Part shown: positions 33,620 to 55,951 of the stretch, in pieces
Layout of the letters: every line of letters begins with the position of its first letter
Position numbering within the stretch: position 1 is the first letter of the stretch
Source: a virus
Taxonomy: Duplodnaviria > Caudoviricetes
DNA: 64,000 bases
Direction: 5' to 3' (one strand)
Virus record (IMG/VR): IMGVR_UViG_3300030376_006203
Span: 64,001 to 128,000 of that record
The notes under the pieces: generated by a model
The model's input: only the letters and a program-made list of their open reading frames with translations
What the model was told of the DNA's origin: nothing
Databases searched by the model: none
Program-made: the position numbers and the translations under genes

Positions 33620-33727
33620 ACAAATAATTATGCTATTATTCGTACAGTTTCTTCCAATGTGATTGTTCTGATTGTTCTTCGTTTTGGTTGTATGAATCAG
33701 GATACACAACCTCAGTCAAATTTGGTT

Positions 33728-35389
33728 TTAGTCTTCCTGATGTTCCTTTTTCACCTGTTGATTGCGTTCTCTCATTATGTATGATAGAGTCTTTTTTTTT
33801 GGATCAGCGTCTTTATCTTCTAAATCATATTTGACTTCGTCCTCATAGGACCCGTCTGGTTCTTTTTTCTCTTCTTTTGAAACTTCTTTTTCTGCTTCTT
33901 CAATCATTTTGTTCCACTGCTCTAACGGCATTGGTGGTACTGGTTCTTTTGGTACTCTACCGCCCAATGTCAATCCTGCACCAGTTAAGCCAGGTCTAAC
34001 TGTTTCTGCTGGTTCGATGTTTTCTAATGTTGTTTTAATATCTTCTTCTAGTTCTTTGTAATCAACTGCTTCTTCTTCCTCTTTGGCTTTACGAGCAACT
34101 TCTTCTAATGCTTTCTTTTCGTCTTCTTCTCTTTGTTTGAATTTTTCTAATTGTTCTTCTGCTTCACGTTCTTTTTGTTCTTGTTCAAAACCTTCCATTA
34201 GCATTTCGTGAGTTGTTTTTTCTTTGCTAGGAGTGGTTGTCACTGGTTTCTTTTCAGCAATATCAGACAATTTAATTGGTTTAGATTTTGCTTGTACTTC
34301 TTTTTGTTGTTCAACTATCTTGGTTAGACTCTGACCTCCAGTAGGCTTAGGCTCAACTGGCTTTACAGGCGCTGGTGGTATTGAGGGTGCTGGTGGAGTC
34401 TTAGGTGCTGTTGGTTCCTCACCATGCTTGTCTATGTATCTCCAACGGAATGTGTACTGCGAAGCAATCAACAATAATACTGCTAATGGATCAAATACAA
34501 ATATAATAGTAATAATCACCCATCTTACTGCTTCTTCTAATAAATTTCTGTCTGCTTCTTCACCATACACAAATTCAGCAATATATCTAATAGGACCAAC
34601 TTCTGATTCCAATTTCATCAGTTGTGATTTTAAAGGTTCTTGTTCTAAAATTAATGTTTCAATTCTTCCTTGAGCATCGAATATGTTCTTTTCAATTGTT
34701 TTAATTTCAACTGTATTCGCATTCAGTTGGTTATTGATTTGTGCTCTTAATTTATTAATGTTTTCTTGTGCTTGAGTGATTTGTGCGTTGATACGATCTC
34801 TTTCAGGACGTTGTTCTTCCCTTAATTTAAGTCCTTGTTTGACTCTACCAGTTCCACCAAATCCTTTGTTACGTGATGTGAATGCTTCTACATCAGCATC
34901 TAACACTTCTAGACGTTTATAAGCATCATCTATCTTCTTTTGTTCTATAGCGATGTCTTGATTAAATCTATCATTAGTGCCCGTGCTTTGCCCTGTAAGA
35001 CGCACTAATACATCCTTTTGACGTATAATATAGCCTTCTTCTGCTTTTACTTTGTTGTCTATGATTTCAATTCTTTGTGTGACTGTGTCTGAAGATAAAT
35101 TTTGATCCACGTGTGCTTTGGAAAGAAATCCAAAGATACCCATTGATGTAATCAACATCAATACTACCACTGCTATTGAGAGATAAGTTTTAAGCCACCA
35201 TGCGGCCCTTTTCCAGTTCTTATGAAGCCATACTGCGGTAACAAGTTTACCAACTTCTAAGGCAGTTCCCATAATGATTATAGGCACAGCCGCCGCGGCA
35301 AATATTGCCACAAGTCCTGCCACTGAATAATAGATTGCTACACCTGATATTGTAATGGCTGTTAAAAATGTAATAAGTCCAAATAACAT
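33728..35389 (-). CDS. membrane-anchored coiled-coil protein conserved in large phages; possible -1 frameshifted C-terminus ending at 33636
   Basis: N-terminal TMs (YYSVAGL, LEVGKLV, TSMGIFGFLSKAH), coiled coil, EVGPIRYIAE, IFVFDPLAV and an acidic tail. Confidence 0.75.
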   Translation of the reverse strand: MLFGLITFLTAITISGVAIYYSVAGLVAIFAAAAVPIIIMGTALEVGKLVTAVWLHKNWKRAAWWLKTYLSIAVVVLMLITSMGIFGFLSKAHVDQNLSSDTVTQRIEIIDNKVKAEEGYIIRQKDVLVRLTGQSTGTNDRFNQDIAIEQKKIDDAYKRLEVLDADVEAFTSRNKGFGGTGRVKQGLKLREEQRPERDRINAQITQAQENINKLRAQINNQLNANTVEIKTIEKNIFDAQGRIETLILEQEPLKSQLMKLESEVGPIRYIAEFVYGEEADRNLLEEAVRWVIITIIFVFDPLAVLLLIASQYTFRWRYIDKHGEEPTAPKTPPAPSIPPAPVKPVEPKPTGGQSLTKIVEQQKEVQAKSKPIKLSDIAEKKPVTTTPSKEKTTHEMLMEGFEQEQKEREAEEQLEKFKQREEDEKKALEEVARKAKEEEEAVDYKELEEDIKTTLENIEPAETVRPGLTGAGLTLGGRVPKEPVPPMPLEQWNKMIEEAEKEVSKEEKKEPDGSYEDEVKYDLEDKDADPKKKTLSYIMRERNQQVKKEHQED

Positions 35390-47607: not shown

Positions 47608-47662
47608 TTTTTTCTCCTACTATGAGTATTTATCGAGTGTATCGGTAAATTTGAATTGATAT

Positions 47663-49035: not shown

Positions 49036-49395
49036 TTAATCATCGTTTTCTGTAGATAGTCTATCTAATTCGTCCACCATACTATCGTAGGATGGTCCGC
49101 CCCATTGATTGTATTCATAATAAGGTTTCACATCACTATTAGGATCATCTTCACCTTCTACAGTTTTTACTTCTGGAATATAATGTTTCATTGTGGATTC
49201 AATTCCTTTTTTAAGAGTGGCTGTGCTACCCGCACATCCTGAACAAGCACCTTTCATCATCATGGTCAGTTTGCCTGTTTCCATATCAAAGTCTTTTACT
49301 TCAACCATTCCACCATGTTGTGCCACAGTGTTGTTGATATATTTTTCCATCACGGATTTTATCTCGTGAAGTATTTCTTCTTTAGTTCTAGTCAT
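49036..49395 (-). CDS. nfuA: NifU/NfuA C-terminal domain Fe-S protein
   Basis: HGGMVE, GACSGC and TLKKGIE...PEV. Confidence 0.88.
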   Translation of the reverse strand: MTRTKEEILHEIKSVMEKYINNTVAQHGGMVEVKDFDMETGKLTMMMKGACSGCAGSTATLKKGIESTMKHYIPEVKTVEGEDDPNSDVKPYYEYNQWGGPSYDSMVDELDRLSTENDD

Positions 49396-49435
49396 AACAA
49401 TTAATATTACAACCTTTTTTTGGATTAGTCAAGTA

Positions 49436-49735
49436 TTATGAACGTTTTTTGGTTGCTCTCTTTGCCATTGTTTTTAGGCTGGAAGAACGATCACCTTTCT
49501 TGGTAGGCATATCTGGAGATTCAGCATCTGTGTCTAGTGTAATGCCTGATTGGTCAAATGATTTGATCATTTTTTTGATTGCTGAATTTCTATTGTACAC
49601 ACTTTTGAAACTGTCTGGAGTTACTGCGAAGCCTCCGACGTTGGACAAAATTTTGTTCAACGCATCAAAACTTAAAAATGCTTTTTGATTTTGAGAATCA
49701 GCACTGCTGATTAAATTTCTCAACACACGAATCAA
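49436..49735 (-). CDS. hypothetical protein, probably the -1 frameshift extension of the upstream gene
   Basis: Only a TTG start without SD; the frame is open back through the A9G run at 49765-49774. Confidence 0.55.
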   Translation of the reverse strand: MIRVLRNLISSADSQNQKAFLSFDALNKILSNVGGFAVTPDSFKSVYNRNSAIKKMIKSFDQSGITLDTDAESPDMPTKKGDRSSSLKTMAKRATKKRS

Positions 49736-49758
49736 GTCCGTGTCAGAGGCTTCAGAAA

Positions 49759-50949
49759 TTAAGCCTTTTTTTTTGAAAGTGTTTCTGCTAGTCTTCTAGA
49801 CAAATGTATGAATGATTCTCTCTTGCTTCTGTCTGCTGGTTCTTCACCGCCTGTTGCTGGTTCACTTGCTGAGAAGTCGTCTGCCTGATCTGGCATATCT
49901 GCATCATCATCTGTTGTTGGTTCCATTGCTGGTTCTTCAACGTCGCTGTCCGCACCAATTGTATCTGGTGCTTGTTCGCCTGTCAGTACGGCTACGCCGC
50001 CTGTTAATGCTTCTCTTGTTGCTTCTAGTGAAGTGTATAAAGATTCTAAACTAGGCTTCACTGCGTTTGTGAATTGTTCTGATTGCTCAACTCCCATTTC
50101 GTCTCTAATAGCATCTGCTAATTCTAACATTGATTCACTCTGCATAGATGCTGTGTCTTCCATCCAGCCTGTGATTTTATCAACCATGTCTTTAGCCGCC
50201 ATTACTAATTGAGCAGATTCTTCTGCGCCTTCTTTAACTTCTTTCTTTTTGTCTTTGATTGCTTTTTTCATTGGCTCTTTTTTATCGCCATCTTTGTCCA
50301 TATCTAAAAAGTCTGGTTTTGCTTTTTCTGTCATTGATTTTTGTAATAAGTCTTCTGCGTCTTGAAGTGTAAATTCTTTATCGCCTACTTTAAACTTATC
50401 TCCTTTTTTCATGCCTGCCGCTTTGGCTTTTTGTACTGCTTGAGCAAATGCGTTGCCTTCCATTGCTTCTGGTTCATATTCTGGTTCTTTCATTGAACCA
50501 TCATCTTCGAATTCTTTTTCAAGTCTTTCAAGTGCTCTTTTGATTACTTCTGAATCTTCTTTGCCTGCTCTTGATTTGATGTCAGCGGCAACGGCTTCTT
50601 TGTTCATTTTTAATGCTTCTTTTTCAGCATCAAAATAATCGCCTATCATTTCTTCTGCCGCTTGGTCTACTTTTTTGAAATAACCTTCTTTTGCTACTTG
50701 TCTATCTTGTATTGCTGATGTGATTACATCTAGGAACATTTTTTGCTTGTGATAGTCTTCGTTGTGGCTTAAACCATCAAATGATTCAGTTTGTTCAATA
50801 TCGCTTATCTTGTTGATAATGCTTGATTGAGCACTTTCTAACTGCTCATCTGTGAATTGATCTAATTTAATTGAAGAGCCAAACACTTTTGCCAGTCTAT
50901 CATTCAACTGTTCTGTTGTTGCTTGGTATCTAAATTGCTCTATCTTCAT
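49759..50949 (-). CDS. acidic prohead core/scaffold-like protein
   Basis: E/D/K-rich, KPDFLDMDKDGD motif, AQLVMAAKDMVD, several xxE-type putative cleavage motifs. Confidence 0.55.
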   Translation of the reverse strand: MKIEQFRYQATTEQLNDRLAKVFGSSIKLDQFTDEQLESAQSSIINKISDIEQTESFDGLSHNEDYHKQKMFLDVITSAIQDRQVAKEGYFKKVDQAAEEMIGDYFDAEKEALKMNKEAVAADIKSRAGKEDSEVIKRALERLEKEFEDDGSMKEPEYEPEAMEGNAFAQAVQKAKAAGMKKGDKFKVGDKEFTLQDAEDLLQKSMTEKAKPDFLDMDKDGDKKEPMKKAIKDKKKEVKEGAEESAQLVMAAKDMVDKITGWMEDTASMQSESMLELADAIRDEMGVEQSEQFTNAVKPSLESLYTSLEATREALTGGVAVLTGEQAPDTIGADSDVEEPAMEPTTDDDADMPDQADDFSASEPATGGEEPADRSKRESFIHLSRRLAETLSKKKA

Positions 50950-50969
50950 TGTTTTGTTCCTTTACTAAT

Positions 50970-51395
50970 TTATTTATCAAATATGTAGTCGTCCAGGGTA
51001 TCTCTTAACTTGAGTAAATCCTCCCAAACAATGTCGTATCGTATATTAGCCGATTCTCGTGTTATATCATCGTCGGTTCTGGCTATTGTGTGCTTGTAAA
51101 ACACACATTCGTTGTATTTGTTGTGTATTTGATCGTCAGTGGTTCTGATCATTTTCAGCACAGATTGGTTGTTTTGGGCCATTTGCTTTGCCATAGCCAA
51201 TGCCGCTGTTTTTGTGAATGTTGTTGCCACCTGTCTGTGTTTCTTAATATCATACAGCAAAAATCCCATGCTGTTTTCACGTACCACATAGTTCTTGATA
51301 CGTAGACTGTTGCCATGTTGAATGGGTAGACTGATGGTTTCAGCCTGCTTGTCTATGAACTTTCTTAATTTTTTAGATAGTTTTTGTAGATCCAT
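50970..51395 (-). CDS. hypothetical protein
   Basis: Tightly coupled ORF; start MDLQKL. Confidence 0.55.
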   Translation of the reverse strand: MDLQKLSKKLRKFIDKQAETISLPIQHGNSLRIKNYVVRENSMGFLLYDIKKHRQVATTFTKTAALAMAKQMAQNNQSVLKMIRTTDDQIHNKYNECVFYKHTIARTDDDITRESANIRYDIVWEDLLKLRDTLDDYIFDK

Positions 51396-51588
51396 TAGCA
51401 ACCACCATTGTTTTATTGTCACGTTCTATGCGACGTACCAAACTTTTATTGATAAGATTTCTTATTACTTCTTGTTCGCGTTCCATAAAATTTTCAATGT
51501 CTTTTATTTCTTTAAGTTTATTCAACATTGTTTTTTCCTCATTGGAAGTTTGAATTACAAAATCTTGTATAAGTTCGTTAATTTTCAT
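51373..51588 (-). CDS. hypothetical protein (MKINEL leader)
   Basis: Coupled ORF; LINKSLV motif. Confidence 0.6.
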   Translation of the reverse strand: MKINELIQDFVIQTSNEEKTMLNKLKEIKDIENFMEREQEVIRNLINKSLVRRIERDNKTMVVANGSTKTI

Positions 51589-51965
51589 TATTGTGTTGCT
51601 TTTTGTCTACGTTGTAGATTTGTGATTACAGGATCTAAATCTTTTTTATTCACTGTAATCGATTGTGGTGCTTGAGGTGTAGGTCTTTTGGTTTTCATTG
51701 TTACTTGATCACCTTGGACTTTGTCCACTTCATAATCCGTTTCTTTGTTTGCTCCTGTTGGCATAGGCACAGTTTTACCTGGCTTTACTATCTGTTGCTG
51801 TGCTTGAGTGTTGGTTTGTTTCAGTGGTGCTTTCACTGATCCTGATTTAATTGGACCTTTAGGAAGTTTGTTAGGAGGCACAGGTGCTCCTGTTTTTTGT
51901 TGACTACCCAAGGTATTCAATGTCTTTTGTAGGTAAGGTGTTTCTGTAATATCTCTTATCTTCAT
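51588..51965 (-). CDS. hypothetical protein (MKIRDITE leader)
   Basis: Coupled ORF. Confidence 0.6.
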   Translation of the reverse strand: MKIRDITETPYLQKTLNTLGSQQKTGAPVPPNKLPKGPIKSGSVKAPLKQTNTQAQQQIVKPGKTVPMPTGANKETDYEVDKVQGDQVTMKTKRPTPQAPQSITVNKKDLDPVITNLQRRQKATQ

Positions 51966-52324
51966 GTTTTGATTGGCTTTCTTCTGTACGTGCTTCTTTT
52001 GAATGTTTTACGTCCAACACTTCTTCTGTTTGGTCTGCTTCTAGATGCACTAGGTCTATTCATTTTACCTACTCTAATACTGGCTCCTGCCGTTTTTTTT
52101 GTTCTTGATCTTTTAATTTTCATTGAAGAACCATAACGTGCTTTGGCTTTTTTAATTGCCATTACTCCACTTATTTTTTTAGGCTGAGTACAAACACTTG
52201 GTGAACTGACGACACGTCCTTTTCTAGGACCTGCTGTACATCTGTACTTTCGCACCATTTTGCCGCCTTTGGTACGAGACCAAATTTGTACAACTGATTC
52301 TGTTACTATTTCTGTTATTTTCAT
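51962..52324 (-). CDS. highly basic hypothetical protein (MKITEIVTE leader)
   Basis: RKYRC..G.RKGRVV..P..C motif. Confidence 0.65.
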   Translation of the reverse strand: MKITEIVTESVVQIWSRTKGGKMVRKYRCTAGPRKGRVVSSPSVCTQPKKISGVMAIKKAKARYGSSMKIKRSRTKKTAGASIRVGKMNRPSASRSRPNRRSVGRKTFKRSTYRRKPIKT

Positions 52325-52374
52325 ACCTAAACCTGTATAGTATGAATATTTAGCACTTGTGGGGGGTGTTTTAA

Positions 52375-52608
52375 TTAACCTGGAAACTTCAATAACAGCA
52401 CAACAATAGTGGATAGTAAGCCAGCAACTATTGTTCCTGTGGCACCTATGATCACTTTAACCATACTCTTATTGCCTGTTTGAATATCTTCGTGAATAGA
52501 CTCTACCTTTTCCTCGATTTTTTCTAAACGAGTCTCAAGGTTTTTGTATCTCTGTTCGCACAAATCAACGTGTGCTTCTAAATTTTGTTTTTCCAGCTCA
52601 GTAGCCAT
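52375..52608 (-). CDS. coiled-coil protein with C-terminal TM
   Basis: LEAHVDLCEQRY..LE.RL and a hydrophobic C-terminus. Confidence 0.65.
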   Translation of the reverse strand: MATELEKQNLEAHVDLCEQRYKNLETRLEKIEEKVESIHEDIQTGNKSMVKVIIGATGTIVAGLLSTIVVLLLKFPG

Positions 52609-52707
52609 TTCTCTCACTTCCGTTGTTAATCAATTTTATTTCTCTTGGAAGATGCCTTGTATTTTGTGCCTCTGTAAGCCTTGTATTGTATTTATTCCAC
52701 ATCAACA

Positions 52708-53112
52708 TCAGTTATCTATTTGTTTAATGAACAGTATATTGGTGTGTTCTGGATCCATTGTCCTGTATGCTCCAGTTTTAATTTTGATGGTCTCGTCCAA
52801 ACCTATAATCATTGGAATAAGATCAAAGTCCTCTTCAAAGAATTCTTGCTTCACAGCATCTGGAAAATCAAGTTCAATTACTGTGGTCCATACCATGTGT
52901 TCTCCCACGTAATTTTCACCAAACTTAAAATTGGTAATGTCCTGTATTTCTGCTTTGGGTCCTGACACAATACTCACATTGGATCTCAATTGAAGTGAGT
53001 TCTCAAAAGTCATGTAATTAGCATATTGATTGGCAGGCTTGTCCTCTGCTGAGCGAGTACGTCTTGCCATGGTTTTTGTGATGTCCAGTAGTGATAATAT
53101 TTTGTATCTCAT
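52708..53112 (-). CDS. hypothetical virion-cluster protein
   Basis: LDITKT, LQLRSN and IPMIIGLDET motifs. Confidence 0.6.
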   Translation of the reverse strand: MRYKILSLLDITKTMARRTRSAEDKPANQYANYMTFENSLQLRSNVSIVSGPKAEIQDITNFKFGENYVGEHMVWTTVIELDFPDAVKQEFFEEDFDLIPMIIGLDETIKIKTGAYRTMDPEHTNILFIKQIDN

Positions 53113-53148
53113 GTGCTGTTGTTCCTAGCACATTTACTTATATCTCAT

Positions 53149-53182
53149 AAAAAAAGAGCGTCCAGTTTCCTGAACGCTCTTT
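53149..53182 (-). terminator. intrinsic terminator
   Basis: AAAGAGCGT...ACGCTCTTT hairpin with a T run on the minus strand. Confidence 0.75.
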
Positions 53183-53217
53183 AATATTACTTTGTAACTT
53201 ACTTTGTAATCCTAAGA

Positions 53218-53466
53218 TTACGCAGTGAATGTTGCAACTAGTGAAATTCCACCAACTGCTTCTGCGCCACCTGGGCCACCTTGTACTGCAAGGTGATTAC
53301 CGTTAGCCGTACCTTCAACTGCCGCTATTGTGCCGTTGTAAGTTGTTGTGATTGAAGTTATCGCATCAGCATGAGTAATAGTTCCTGTTGCTACTGCATA
53401 GATGTAAGTAGTTGGACCTAAACCGCTTTTTGCTACAACTGTCGCTGAGTTTGTTCTTGTTGCCAT
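53218..53466 (-). CDS. small Ala/Thr/Gly-rich putative structural protein
   Basis: TAAATA promoter, 5' hairpin ACACTTCG-GAG-CGAAGTGT, GAGGAG RBS and its own terminator. Confidence 0.65.
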   Translation of the reverse strand: MATRTNSATVVAKSGLGPTTYIYAVATGTITHADAITSITTTYNGTIAAVEGTANGNHLAVQGGPGGAEAVGGISLVATFTA

Positions 53467-53561
53467 TGTTTTTCTCCTCTTTATCGTTTAATGACACACT
53501 TCGCTCCGAAGTGTATATGCAATTATTTAGTAGGTTTTGGTAAAATATGTGTGCTACTATA

Positions 53562-54467
53562 TTATTTTCGGCTCTTTTTGGCTCTAGATTGTAATGCTTT
53601 AAGCACACTTACAAAAGCCGGGCCTGCTGTTACTATATCATTTATTAATTGTATTGCTGGTAGATAGGCACCCACTATTGAAGATGGTATTGACTTGCCT
53701 GAAAGAGCAGAGTCTATGAAACGTTTTACAGCCACTAGATTTTTGCCTCCCACTAGATATCTATACAATGCTAGGTCTCTACCTTGTACACTCACATCTG
53801 GTACACTCACCTTAGGTTCAGCATCATTAACTCTGCCTGTTTCTAAATTCCTATCAGCGGCTAATTTTTCCAAGTGTTCTATGCTGTCTGAACTTCTCAA
53901 TTTTGCTCTTGCGGCATGAAGCAATCTTGTCACTAAATTTTGTTTGTCACGGACTGACAAGGTGTTGAATTGAAATAAACTTCTTCTTATTGATTTGTAG
54001 TCTGCGTTTCTTATCTTTAAACCAGTTTCAATGCCCAAAAACACCTGCATGATACTGGGTGCTATTAGTCCTTGTTGTAGAGCACCAAGGTATCTGTTGA
54101 ACGCCATTGTAGGAAAACTGCTTTTGTTTCTCATTTCCATAGCACTTTTTGGATCTTTTAATTTATTGATTGCTTCTTCGTCACCTGTGACAAAATACAC
54201 AAAGTTGTATAAATCTGTGGAATACATTCTAAATCTATCATAATTTGAATGCTTGGTTTCCCTAGCATATCTTGTGGCTATTTGTCTGTATGTAGGATAT
54301 TGATTCAACAGTTGAAGTATCAACAGTGTAAGATACAATCTTTCTGTACAATCTGTATATGTAAGGACTTTTTGATCCCTTGAATCACGAGTCATACGTG
54401 CTTCAAACAATGAACTTAAAAAGTCCAATTGATTAGTAGTTGCTAGGTTCTGCTTTATCGATTCCAT
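53562..54467 (-). CDS. hypothetical protein
   Basis: LFEARM and FRMYSTDLYN motifs; long ORF. Confidence 0.65.
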   Translation of the reverse strand: MESIKQNLATTNQLDFLSSLFEARMTRDSRDQKVLTYTDCTERLYLTLLILQLLNQYPTYRQIATRYARETKHSNYDRFRMYSTDLYNFVYFVTGDEEAINKLKDPKSAMEMRNKSSFPTMAFNRYLGALQQGLIAPSIMQVFLGIETGLKIRNADYKSIRRSLFQFNTLSVRDKQNLVTRLLHAARAKLRSSDSIEHLEKLAADRNLETGRVNDAEPKVSVPDVSVQGRDLALYRYLVGGKNLVAVKRFIDSALSGKSIPSSIVGAYLPAIQLINDIVTAGPAFVSVLKALQSRAKKSRK

Positions 54468-54807
54468 ATGTTGACACAAATAATTCTACCATATCTTTTG
54501 CTTGTAAAAACTTTTCAATGGTTTGACTTTGTTGAAGATCTTTTGTGAACTGTGCTTTGACCTGAGGTTTAACACTAGGTGCAGTTAACAATCTTCTCAA
54601 CACTGTGGCTTGATTCATTGATACTTTGAATTTTTTGCCATCATCTGTTGTTACTGTGTCCAATGGATTTGGATTGCCTCGACTGTCCAGTATTTTGCCT
54701 AATTGATTGAATATAGAATCCTGCTTGAATTCTTTATCCATTCCCGCATTTGGATCATCTGCTGGATCTATGTCTTTAAACTCTTTAATAAATTCTTTTG
54801 CTTTCAT
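54433..54807 (-). CDS. hypothetical protein (MKAKEFIKE leader)
   Basis: AAGGAG RBS; coupled ORF. Confidence 0.6.
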   Translation of the reverse strand: MKAKEFIKEFKDIDPADDPNAGMDKEFKQDSIFNQLGKILDSRGNPNPLDTVTTDDGKKFKVSMNQATVLRRLLTAPSVKPQVKAQFTKDLQQSQTIEKFLQAKDMVELFVSTYGIDKAEPSNY

Positions 54808-54817
54808 TGTGTTCTCC

Positions 54818-55951
54818 TTATCTATTTATCGCTCTGTTGGCTCTAGTGAATCCAGAACGTTTCACCAATTTCATATTGCCTTCAGGAGACCCTAGTACAT
54901 AGCCTTCTCCGCCCGGTTTGCCATTGATTGTTGCTGTGATATCGCCCTGTGCTGAATCCAATTGATTGATGATTGAATCTTTCACTGTCATTATTCCGCC
55001 AACCAAATTCCACAGTTTGCTGAATGCGTTCATGTTTGCTGTTACATATTCTTTAATTTTAATTCTTTTAGGCTGGCTCACAGCACTTGCCGCCAACCAT
55101 CTTAAAAAATCATCACCTAATCTTTTCAATCCTGTATCAACTTTGCTGTTGGTGTAGGTGTACAAAATGTTAGGTAGATCAGTCAATTTCATTTGTGCTA
55201 TTTTGTTTTTGTTCAACAGTTTGTCTATGTCTGCTCCACTGTTGTTTACAAGTGATTTCAATTGGTCTAGTCCTTTTACTTGTATAGGATCTTTTTTGTT
55301 GATTGTTGTAGGTGGGATAGCCAATACAGAACCTTGTACCATGTCTAAATCTTTAATGGGTAGTATTTTTCCATCCTCAGTCAATGTGTGATGTACAACA
55401 ACTCCAACTTTACTGTTGGCAATCTTTTGTCCCAGTTCACTATTCGCATCTACATTGTATTGTACAACATTAGGTTTGAATACTAAACTGTTGCCTGATT
55501 TTTTAGGTGTAGCAAAGTATAACATATCTCCTACAAAATATCCTTGAAAGTTTTCAGGCACTGCTTCTGCCATTGTGTTAAACACTGAAGCCATTTTAGA
55601 AGCATATTGAGATTGTGATTTCTTTTTGGTAGCGTCTTTGCCTCTACTCATAATTACACTTTTTAAATCTTCAGGGTTTGTTGCTCTACCATCATAACCT
55701 TTAGCAACAAATCCAGACTTGTCTGTAAAAATAAATTCACCATTAGGATTTCTACCAAACACCACAGCAGGAGAACCATCCCACTTGATTGTAAGTGACT
55801 GTGTGCTTTTGCTTAATGATTGTAATTGTTCAATGGCTCTTATGGCTCCTTTGGAACCTTCCCAGAAGATTAAATCTTCTGCGTGTTGTATTCTTGATTC
55901 TTTCAGTGCGACATTCTTTTTGTCCACTTCTTTAAATTCTACTAATCTCAT
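54818..55951 (-). CDS. ligase-like covalent nucleotidyltransferase fold protein (DUF6267-like)
   Basis: IQHAED, KWDGSPA (KxDG), GDMLY, GEGYV and KLVKR. Confidence 0.6.
   Translation of the reverse strand: MRLVEFKEVDKKNVALKESRIQHAEDLIFWEGSKGAIRAIEQLQSLSKSTQSLTIKWDGSPAVVFGRNPNGEFIFTDKSGFVAKGYDGRATNPEDLKSVIMSRGKDATKKKSQSQYASKMASVFNTMAEAVPENFQGYFVGDMLYFATPKKSGNSLVFKPNVVQYNVDANSELGQKIANSKVGVVVHHTLTEDGKILPIKDLDMVQGSVLAIPPTTINKKDPIQVKGLDQLKSLVNNSGADIDKLLNKNKIAQMKLTDLPNILYTYTNSKVDTGLKRLGDDFLRWLAASAVSQPKRIKIKEYVTANMNAFSKLWNLVGGIMTVKDSIINQLDSAQGDITATINGKPGGEGYVLGSPEGNMKLVKRSGFTRANRAINR

What the first reader, a model, noticed from the sequence alone, without database searches (positions are those of the whole stretch)
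49436..49790. Probable programmed -1 frameshift extending the scaffold-like protein
Seen: gene 49759-50949 ends TCA AAA AAA AAG GCT TAA, with an in-frame A_AAA_AAG at 49771-49765. The -1 frame reads KKK-GLISEASDTDLIRVL... straight into ORF 49436-49735, which has only an SD-less TTG start. Known: A_AAA_AAG is the most efficient bacterial -1 slippery heptamer (dnaX, IS3 family). Inference: two isoforms (396 aa and about 504 aa) are made in a fixed ratio, with an ISE prohead-protease-like site just after the shift.
Basis: partly seen in the sequence, partly recalled or inferred. Interest (0 to 1): 0.75.

Follow-up and report, generated by a model that had tools for sequence, protein, structure and literature searches.

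The report
Conserved A9G frameshift joining two phage genes
An abundant group of uncultured ocean phages keeps a ten-base slippery signal (A AAA AAA AAG) at the very end of one gene, so that some of its protein continues into the next, start-less gene; the same phage uses this signal at two more genes.

Summary
Gene 49759-50949(-) ends TCA AAA AAA AAG GCT TAA, and the -1 frame runs from the run into ORF 49436-49765, giving products of 396 and 504 aa.

Comparative data make a programmed event very likely.
- All 53 run-bearing junctions, from many metagenomes and down to about 35-40% protein identity, keep A9G (rarely A10 or A11).
- The run always ends on a frame-0 codon boundary, 0-3 codons before the stop. 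The downstream domain is always in -1 and has no conserved start.
- A sister clade encodes that domain as a separate gene with GGAG + ATG.
- Synonymous sites are fixed: TCA 37/37, and AAG 39/42 against 18% elsewhere.
- 34 of 34 junctions found by pattern have exactly A9.

Two further A9G sites in the same record, one of them inside this window, are conserved in the same way.

I could not separate ribosomal -1 slippage (favoured) from RNA-polymerase slippage on A9. One RNA-derived contig has A11.

The "scaffold" label and the protease-site idea are not supported. I found no similarity to T4 gp22 and no head genes nearby. The extension looks like a winged-helix domain with a basic tail.

First-stage readers of this scan noted the same arrangement here and on another genome.

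The parts
50971..50977 (-). ATAAATA, a T4-type late-promoter-like motif 22-28 nt upstream of the P1 start
   Evidence: 12 of 14 copies in the window lie on the - strand just upstream of ORF starts, and the motif is under-represented overall (14 against 23 expected). Promoter function is inferred.
50958..50962 (-). Shine-Dalgarno-like AAGGA, 8 nt before the ATG of P1
   Evidence: Read directly from the sequence.
49759..50949 (-). P1, the frame-0 gene (396 aa). It has a conserved N-domain, a variable insert, the AKPDFLDMDKDGDKKEPMKKA motif, a long helical hairpin, an acidic disordered tail, and the C-end SRRLAETLSKKKA.
   Evidence: more than 4000 homologues, all 'hypothetical'; alignment A2; AF2 model, pLDDT 68.
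49765..49774 (-). Recoding signal A_AAA_AAA_AAG (A9 run 49766-49774 plus G 49765; classic heptamer 49765-49771)
   Evidence: invariant in length, phase and synonymous positions across diverged homologues, while the flanks vary.
49759..49761 (-). Frame-0 stop TAA, one codon after the heptamer
   Evidence: in all 53 homologous junctions the frame-0 stop lies 0, 1 or (in 2 cases) 3 codons after the run.
49747..49766 (-). Conserved hairpin AGGCUU-N8-AAGCCU that begins inside the heptamer. On the + strand it reads as a stem followed by T9, which is terminator-like.
   Evidence: MFE folds; synonymous sites GGC, TTA, ATT and GCC are fixed, and the variable site lies in the loop; terminator-like hit on + at 49745-49768. 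Its role is unknown.
49436..49765 (-). P2, the -1 frame extension (109 codons plus stop). It has a winged-helix-like fold (residues 5-77) and a disordered basic tail ending MAKRATKKRS.
   Evidence: A1: aligns end to end with stand-alone homologues; pLDDT 74; winged-helix-like matches, weak; codon-position bias is the same before and after the TTG.
49796..49798 (-). TAG that closes the -1 frame upstream and sets the 5' limit of the shift window
   Evidence: -1 frame open from 49795. In some homologues the whole shift window is only 16-19 nt and consists of little more than the run.

Best explanation
This is a programmed -1 recoding site. Ribosomes translating P1 reach the in-phase A_AAA_AAA_AAG at its last codons. 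Most read on and terminate at TAA, giving the 396-aa P1. A fixed fraction of tRNA-Lys slip back one base on the run and continue in the -1 frame through 109 more codons. That gives a 504-aa P1-P2 protein in which the acidic, helical P1 carries a C-terminal winged-helix-like domain with a basic tail.

P2 has no initiation signal of its own in this clade, so recoding is its only route to expression. A sister clade makes the two proteins from separate genes, which suggests that they act together and that the shift fixes their ratio.

Shown: the anatomy, the conservation, the phase, and the selection at synonymous sites. Inferred: that the slip is ribosomal rather than transcriptional, its efficiency, and the function. 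The function is probably that of a late protein, given the ATAAATA motif and the leader-like N-terminus.
For: -: in 53 of 53 run-bearing junctions P2 is in the -1 frame, the run ends on a frame-0 codon boundary, and the stop follows within 0-3 codons.
- stand-alone P2 homologues with GGAG + ATG align end to end with the extension. The conserved peptide starts right at the slip. There is no conserved start codon.
- third-position bias is 0.43 before the TTG and 0.41 after it.
- the final Lys codon is AAG in 39 of 42 against 18% elsewhere in P1. The two Lys codons before it are AAA in 42 of 42. The Ser codon is TCA in 37 of 37 against 40% elsewhere. The next codon upstream takes 17 different forms.
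- 34 of 34 family junctions found by pattern have exactly A9; an independent DNA run has A9.
- none of the 120 best protein clusters is fused.
- two more A9G sites in the same record have the same phase and G, and are conserved in their own gene families.
- the 46 nt after the run are more structured than control windows (z -1.23 against -0.39, p = 2e-4).
- (PMC5009743): A_AAA_AAG is the most shift-prone heptamer in E. coli.
Against: - No protein or read-level data exist here, and the efficiency is unknown.
- A9 is three bases longer than a heptamer needs. It is exactly the length at which bacterial RNA polymerase slips efficiently.
- One of the two RNA-derived contigs that span the site has A11.
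- There is no upstream SD-like stimulator. The conserved hairpin in the window's clade starts inside the heptamer, too close to act as a classical downstream stimulator. In other clades the hairpin spacings vary.
- The host and its tRNA-Lys set are unknown.
- The sequences are related, so the counts are not independent events.
Confidence: 0.55

Rival explanations
1. Transcriptional slippage. RNA polymerase stutters on the T9 template and makes a population of mRNAs with A10, A11 and longer runs. Standard translation of the A10 species (also A13 and A7) gives the same P1-P2 fusion. This is the mechanism of Thermus thermophilus dnaX. It could also act together with ribosomal slippage.
For: The run is at least 9 A in every junction, and the synonymous TCA is fixed. 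That is more than a heptamer needs and equals the RNA:DNA hybrid length. The review PMC5009743 reports efficient in vivo slippage at 9 A/T and its use in Thermus dnaX. An RNA-library contig (X15, depth 5.6) carries A11, whereas the DNA contigs carry A9. As in Thermus dnaX, both non-zero frames at site 3 close quickly.
Against: Phase and the following G should not matter for polymerase slippage. Yet all three independent sites are xxA AAA AAA AAG in phase, and AAG is 93% at the site against 18% background. At site 3 a subclade keeps the heptamer with only A8. The other RNA contig (X16) has A9. The A11 contig is shallow and comes from a strain variant, and reverse-transcriptase or PCR stutter could produce it. 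No conserved upstream hairpin was seen.
Confidence: 0.3
2. Genomic heterogeneity or artefact. The true or functional gene is a single 504-aa ORF with A10, and A9 is a homopolymer miscall. Alternatively, A9 and A10 are a DNA-level phase-variable tract in the phage population.
For: One contig (L062) has A10 and an in-frame fusion, while its near-identical relative L063 has A9.
Against: A9 is seen in about 50 distinct assemblies from many samples and in 34 of 34 pattern hits, and in an independent 2025 DNA run. None of the 120 closest protein clusters is fused, and no longer P2-bearing protein was found. The frame-0 stop is kept 0-3 codons after the run in all clades. Two other genes show the same design.
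Confidence: 0.04
3. P2 is translated on its own, by re-initiation after the P1 stop or from a non-canonical start, with the A-rich run acting as a ribosome-binding enhancer.
For: Stand-alone P2 genes exist in relatives. Gene callers start P2 at GTG or TTG. The frame-0 stop overlaps the first P2 codons.
Against: No ATG, GTG or TTG is conserved near the junction. The window's TTG is TTA in most homologues, and the 'AAAG TAA' clade has no start codon for more than 12 codons. There is no SD. Peptide conservation and codon-position bias begin at the first -1 codon. This model does not explain the fixed phase of the run.
Confidence: 0.05
4. The run plus the adjacent hairpin is primarily an intrinsic terminator for antisense (+ strand) transcription, and the ORF arrangement is incidental.
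For:: on the + strand there is a terminator-like stem at 49745-49768 followed by T-rich sequence. The hairpin is conserved at synonymous sites in the window's clade.
Against: Clades with 'AAAG TAA' keep the run but have no adjacent stem. This model does not explain the -1 ORF, the phase, the AAG, or the stand-alone homologues.
Confidence: 0.03

Closest known systems
E. coli dnaX tau/gamma programmed -1 frameshift (A_AAA_AAG)
   Same: The slippery heptamer is identical and in phase. Two isoforms share an N-terminal part. A stop in one frame lies close behind the site. Site 3 of this phage (KKKD*) copies the dnaX logic of truncation.
   Different: Here the shift extends the protein by a 109-aa domain instead of truncating it. 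The run is A9, not A6. No upstream SD-like element was seen, and there is no stem-loop at the dnaX spacing. The gene family is unrelated.
Thermus thermophilus dnaX transcriptional slippage on a run of 9 A/T
   Same: Homopolymer of exactly nine, and the products are the same as for a -1 shift.
   Different: Phase and the following G are conserved here, which polymerase slippage does not require. RNA heterogeneity is only hinted at, by one shallow contig with A11.
IS3/IS911-family orfA-orfB fusion by -1 frameshift at A_AAA_AAG
   Same: Two consecutive ORFs, the second lacking its own efficient start, are fused at A_AAA_AAG close to the orfA stop.
   Different: This is not a transposase and not a mobile element. 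No pseudoknot or three-way junction was identified.
Tailed-phage tail assembly chaperone gpG/gpGT (lambda G_GGA_AAG) and T7 capsid 10A/10B
   Same: A phage late protein is made as a short form and a C-terminally extended form in a fixed ratio by a -1 shift conserved across diverged phages.
   Different: The gene family and genomic position differ: this gene sits next to an exonuclease, NifU and RNR, not between tail tube and tape measure or in the head module. The slippery site also differs.
T4 gp22 prohead scaffold and T4 internal proteins with capsid-targeting leaders
   Same: Acidic, largely helical or disordered protein with a late-promoter-like motif. Its N-terminus MKIEQF resembles the T4 leader MKTYQEF, and an aliphatic-x-Glu follows the junction.
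   Different: No sequence or profile similarity to gp22. The gene is not in a head-gene module. No prohead protease was found in the record. The leader idea is untested.

Membership tests
Programmed -1 ribosomal frameshift site | X_XXY_YYZ heptamer in phase with the upstream frame | tested here: met
   A_AAA_AAG at 49771-49765 is in phase. The phase is kept in 53 of 53 junctions.
Programmed -1 ribosomal frameshift site | Conserved -1 ORF without its own initiation signal, under purifying selection from the shift site onward | tested here: met
   no conserved start or SD. The peptide is conserved from the first -1 codon. Third-position bias is 0.43 before the TTG and 0.41 after it.
Programmed -1 ribosomal frameshift site | Slippery site conserved at synonymous positions across diverged homologues | tested here: met
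   AAG 39/42 against 18% background, AAA AAA 42/42, TCA 37/37 against 40%; 34/34 have A9.
Programmed -1 ribosomal frameshift site | Stimulatory element (downstream structure at 5-9 nt, or upstream SD-like sequence) | tested here: inconclusive
   The downstream 46 nt are more structured than controls, but the hairpins differ in place. In the window's clade the hairpin starts inside the heptamer. No SD-like element was seen and there was no Rfam match.
Programmed -1 ribosomal frameshift site | Trans-frame protein detected from an unedited mRNA | not testable with these tools
   Needs proteomics or a reporter assay.
Transcriptional slippage site | Homopolymeric A/T run of about 9 or more | tested here: met
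   A9 at 49766-49774. The run is at least 9 in all 53 junctions.
Transcriptional slippage site | Run-length heterogeneity in RNA that is absent from DNA | tested here: inconclusive
   only assembled contigs were available. RNA X16 has A9, RNA X15 has A11 (depth 5.6), DNA X13 has A9.
T4 gp22-type prohead scaffold | Sequence or profile similarity to gp22 or scaffold families | tested here: not met
   hhalign of A2 against T4 gp22 gives probability 0.2%. No Pfam or PHROG scaffold family matched.
T4 gp22-type prohead scaffold | Position in the head module beside the prohead protease and the major capsid gene | tested here: not met
   The neighbours are NifU, a 2OG oxygenase, a PD-(D/E)XK exonuclease, a spike-like protein and RNR. 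The same synteny holds in distant relatives. No Gp23 or S77 protease match was found in the 148-kb record, but the controls were silent and the record is a fragment.
T4 gp22-type prohead scaffold | Cleavage by the prohead protease at (L/I)-x-E | not testable with these tools
   An aliphatic-x-Glu motif follows every frameshift junction, but no protease or cleavage data exist.
Winged-helix DNA-binding domain (P2) | Three-helix bundle plus beta-hairpin wing matching solved winged-helix domains | tested here: inconclusive
   The AF2 model has pLDDT 74. The best Foldseek E is 0.036 and the best VIA Z is 6.3 (JetB/KITE, MCM8 WH, Rok, ORC2 WH). These are below the level at which the tool's notes call a match safe.

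The most novel reading that the evidence does not exclude
An abundant lineage of large uncultured marine phages uses one 10-nt signal, A_AAA_AAA_AAG, as a small recoding 'regulon' at three or more unrelated genes, with three different outcomes. At this site it adds a domain. At window 33791-33800 it swaps in the ancestral C-terminus of a 553-aa protein. At record 34542-34551 it gives a dnaX-like truncation that removes a C-terminal domain. All three isoform ratios would then depend on one variable of the infected cell, either tRNA-Lys decoding or modification state, or RNA-polymerase fidelity. In P1/P2 the signal replaced an ordinary two-gene arrangement that survives in a sister clade.
Probability: 0.45. 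Interest if true: 0.7.

Novelty: new member of a known kind. Interest (0 to 1): 0.6.

Why it matters
Programmed frameshifts in phages are known almost only from tail chaperones, a few capsid genes and mobile elements. This case is a deeply conserved one in a very abundant ocean phage protein family that is entirely unannotated (more than 4000 clusters).

It comes with a natural control: a sister clade with two ordinary genes. It also has two sibling sites in the same genome.

There are three practical consequences.
- Annotation: the downstream ORF is currently called from spurious GTG or TTG starts, and this can be corrected.
- Interaction: the arrangement predicts that P1 and P2 act together physically.
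- Experiment: the system is compact enough to ask whether A9G sites work through the ribosome, the polymerase, or both.

Tried and rejected
- Phage isolate collection: no DNA or protein match for P1 or P2. Profile searches of HTVC008M and Melnitz found nothing, with no positive control.
- Function: Pfam, PHROGs, PDB sequence profiles and the ESM Atlas gave nothing. Foldseek with the P1 model gave nothing.
- Known frameshift RNA elements: none in Rfam.
- Fused natural forms: a search of longer proteins with P2 found none. The tool calls this weak evidence.
- Read-level test: only Logan contigs were on offer, so minor length variants could not be counted. RNA run X17 did not cover the site.
- Gp23 and S77 protease families in the record: no match, but the controls were silent too, so this is uninformative.
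- Upstream SD-like or upstream hairpin stimulators: none convincing by eye.
- A loop-downstream pseudoknot (AAUUUC with GAAAUU) exists in the window's clade but not in others, and it falls on the conserved LRNLI codons. I rejected it as unsupported.
- The careful tree did not finish in time. Only the quick tree is cited.

Full report
**What is there**

On the - strand, gene 49759-50949 (P1, 396 aa) ends TCA AAA AAA AAG GCT TAA.
- The A9 run is 49766-49774.
- The in-phase heptamer A_AAA_AAG is 49771-49765.
- After a -1 shift the reading is ...SKKK-GLISEASDTDLIRVL... for 109 codons (49765-49439) to a stop at 49438-49436. The products are therefore 396 and 504 aa.
- The -1 frame is closed upstream by TAG at 49798-49796, so the shift must occur within about 34 nt around the run.

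P1 has a good start, with AAGGA 8 nt before the ATG. It also has an ATAAATA motif at 50971-50977. Twelve of the 14 copies of this motif in the window lie on the coding strand just upstream of ORF starts, like T4-type late promoters.

The TTG at 49735 that a mechanical ORF list uses for the downstream ORF has no Shine-Dalgarno sequence.

**Context**

The window is part of a 148-kb IMG/VR virus record, about 36% GC, with nearly all genes on one strand. The nearest cultured phages, by a neighbouring cyclase gene, are the pelagimyophage HTVC008M and the OM43 phage Melnitz. Neither has P1 or P2.

The neighbours are as follows:
- NifU (49036-49395);
- a 2OG-Fe(II) oxygenase;
- a PD-(D/E)XK exonuclease;
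- a pectate-lyase-like spike protein;
- ribonucleotide reductase.

The rest of the window is mostly nucleotide metabolism and proteins of unknown function.

**Is it more than chance?**

The heptamer alone is common: there are 59 in the window. A9 runs, in contrast, are avoided, with 3 found against 11.5 expected. The case rests on comparison.

P1 has more than 4000 homologous protein clusters, all 'hypothetical'. The 120 best are all about 396-404 aa and none is fused. IMG/VR holds several hundred homologous loci.

I examined 63 distinct junctions.
- Fifty-three carry the run: A9G in 50, A10 in two and A11 in one.
- In all 53 the run ends on a frame-0 codon boundary.
- In all 53 the frame-0 stop follows after 0, 1 or (twice) 3 codons.
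- In all 53 the P2 homologue lies in the -1 frame.
- This holds down to about 35-40% protein identity, with diverged flanks.
- In some homologues the open overlap is only 16-19 nt, which is little more than the run itself.

A pattern scan that allowed A8 to A11 found 34 family junctions, all with exactly A9. An independent 2025 DNA run also has A9.

Synonymous positions are fixed.
- The last Lys codon is AAG in 39 of 42, against 18% AAG elsewhere in the same genes.
- The two Lys codons before it are AAA in 42 of 42.
- The preceding Ser codon is TCA in 37 of 37, against 40% elsewhere.
- The next codon upstream takes 17 different forms.

So both the length of nine and the final G appear to be selected. 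The conserved unit is the in-phase 10-mer A_AAA_AAA_AAG.

**P2 is a real coding region that needs the shift**

Five distinct junctions (six loci: L071, L078, L079, L109-L111) lack the run. They encode P2 as a separate gene with GGAG + ATG (MRLFEL...). These stand-alone proteins align end to end with the -1 extension.

In the run-bearing clade no start codon is conserved. The window's TTG is TTA in most relatives, and the 'AAAG TAA' subclade has no ATG, GTG or TTG for more than a dozen codons. Peptide conservation begins at the first -1 codon. Third-position bias is the same before the TTG (0.43) and after it (0.41).

A quick tree puts three stand-alone forms (L078, L079, L110) as sister to the run-bearing clade, with both branches at 100 (SH-aLRT). 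The fourth, L071, nests inside the run-bearing clade with weak support. This fits a single origin of the frameshift arrangement and perhaps one reversion.

One contig, L062, has A10 and therefore an in-frame fusion with exactly the predicted junction (...GKKKGLVIETD...). Its near-identical relative L063 has A9.

**Two sibling sites**

The 148-kb record has only three A9 runs on the coding strand. All three are xxA AAA AAA AAG in phase with a long ORF.

Site 2 is at window 33791-33800, in the 553-aa ORF 33728-35389.
- It lies 60 nt before the stop.
- Its -1 frame runs 51 codons to a TAA at 33636-33638 and carries a conserved C-end (...GRIKPNLTEVVYPESYxQNEEQSxxSHWKKLYE).
- A9G or A10G in the same phase is kept in all 17 distinct run-bearing homologous contigs.
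- In more distant homologues the same C-terminal motif is in frame 0 and there is no run.

Site 3 is at record 34542-34551, outside the window.
- It reads TTC AAA AAA AAG ACT GA.
- The -1 frame stops after one codon, which is dnaX-like.
- The heptamer and the immediate -1 stop are kept in at least 10 diverged homologues. One subclade has A8G.

Three independent sites with the same phase and the same following base are unlikely if phase were irrelevant.

**Mechanism**

Ribosomal -1 slippage on A_AAA_AAG is the classic explanation. Three observations favour it:
- the fixed phase;
- the enrichment of AAG;
- the A8G variants at site 3.

The heptamer is the most shift-prone one in E. coli, where a single tRNA-Lys reads both codons (PMC5009743).

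The run is three bases longer than a heptamer needs, however. Nine is the length at which bacterial RNA polymerase slips efficiently, and Thermus dnaX exploits this. An A10 transcript would give the same protein.

A triple (E/P/A-site) slip on the 10-mer would explain both constraints, but this is my inference.

The only expression data available were assembled contigs. One RNA-library contig has A9. Another, shallow and from a strain variant, has A11. That is a hint of RNA heterogeneity and no more.

The 46 nt after the run are more structured than control windows of the same genes (mean z -1.23 against -0.39, p = 2e-4; the sequences are not independent). The hairpins differ among clades. In the window's clade the conserved hairpin (49747-49766) starts inside the heptamer, which is too close for a classical stimulator. 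On the opposite strand it reads as a terminator. There is no Rfam match.

My probabilities are as follows:

| Reading | Probability |
|---|---|
| Programmed recoding of some kind | about 0.85-0.9 |
| Ribosomal slippage as the main step | about 0.55 |
| Polymerase slippage as the main step | about 0.3 |

**What the proteins are**

No family, solved structure or atlas cluster names either protein.

| Residues of P1 | Feature in the AF2 model |
|---|---|
| 1-208 | helical N-terminal region |
| 211-241 | disordered stretch holding the nearly invariant AKPDFLDMDKDGDKKEPMKKA motif |
| 242-323 | long helical hairpin |
| 325-396 | disordered acidic tail |

P2 is modelled at pLDDT 74 as a small alpha/beta domain followed by a disordered basic tail ending MAKRATKKRS. 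Its best structural neighbours are winged-helix domains (JetB/KITE, MCM8, Rok, ORC2), but the scores are too weak to be safe.

The synteny [about 160-aa ORF]-P1-P2-exonuclease-spike is kept in the distant stand-alone clade.

The 'scaffold' label fails the tests I could run:
- hhalign against T4 gp22 gives probability 0.2%;
- the gene is not in a head module.

P1 does share an N-terminal pattern, M-[KR]-h-x-[EQD]-h. It occurs in 14 of 224 ORFs of the record against 0.18% of internal Met positions. These ORFs cluster around sites 1 and 3. Other first-stage readers read this pattern as a capsid-targeting leader, but it is untested. An aliphatic-x-Glu follows every frameshift junction. Whether it is a protease site cannot be told.

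**Verdict**

The ribosomal mechanism is favoured but not proven. The scaffold and protease-site parts are unsupported.

This is a new, deeply conserved member of a known kind of recoding. It stands out because it replaced a two-gene arrangement and because the same signal recurs at three genes of one abundant marine phage lineage.

First-stage notes of this scan had flagged site 2 (e1-5688950) and the same P1/P2 design on another genome (e1-6022770). I tested the former directly. I saw the latter's sequence type in loci L052 and L070.

Noticed in passing
window 33636-33800 (-): Second conserved A9G site. CCA AAA AAA AAG lies 60 nt before the stop of the 553-aa ORF 33728-35389. The -1 frame adds 51 aa with a conserved C-end (…YPESYxQNEEQ…SHWKKLYE) that is in frame 0, without a run, in distant homologues L132 and L138. 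A9G or A10G in the same phase is kept in all 17 distinct run-bearing contigs.
   Followed up: yes
outside the window: G000:C1:34344-35156 (-), run at 34542-34551; locus L193: Third A9G site. TTC AAA AAA AAG ACT GA lies in a 270-aa ORF, and the -1 frame stops after one codon (KKKD*). This is a dnaX-like truncation that would remove the C-terminal …PSAYASGALVQCRKKGAANWG domain. The heptamer (A9G or A8G) and the immediate -1 stop are kept in at least 10 diverged homologues.
   Followed up: partly
window 49759-55951 and G000:C1:33940-38992: N-termini matching M-[KR]-hydrophobic-x-[EQD]-hydrophobic occur in 14 of 224 ORFs against 0.18% of internal Met positions. They cluster in two blocks that contain A9G sites 1 and 3. 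The stand-alone P2 of the sister clade starts MRLFEL.
   Followed up: partly
window, 12 sites on the - strand (e.g. 50971-50977, 47627-47633, 54823-54829): ATAAATA is under-represented overall (14 against 23 expected), but 12 of 14 copies sit on the coding strand just upstream of ORF starts. It looks like a T4-type late promoter element.
   Followed up: partly
window 49745-49775 (+): On the antisense strand, the hairpin next to the run followed by T9 scores as an intrinsic terminator. It is conserved at synonymous sites in the window's clade only.
   Followed up: partly
L062:582-591 (IMGVR_UViG_3300032220_001558): The only junction with an off-length run inside an A9G clade: A10, giving an in-frame P1-P2 fusion. 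Its near-identical relative L063 has A9. Whether that data set is DNA or RNA is not known.
   Followed up: partly
window 49765 (run), RNA run X15: A 246-nt contig from a metatranscriptome library carries two extra bases in the run (A11). Another RNA run and a DNA run have A9.
   Followed up: partly
window 50248-50310 (-), P1 residues 214-234: The motif AKPDFLDMDKDGDKKEPMKKA (DxDxDG-like, possibly metal-binding) is almost invariant across the whole P1 family, although the AF2 model shows it as disordered.
   Followed up: no
window 49404-49432 (-): A sigma-70-like promoter (TTGACT-17-TAATAT) lies directly after the P2 stop and ahead of the NifU-like gene.
   Followed up: no
G000:C1:145819-147970: A cluster of six tRNA genes (Thr, Gly, Cys, Glu, Asp, Gln) lies at the end of the record. 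The part held has no tRNA-Lys.
   Followed up: no
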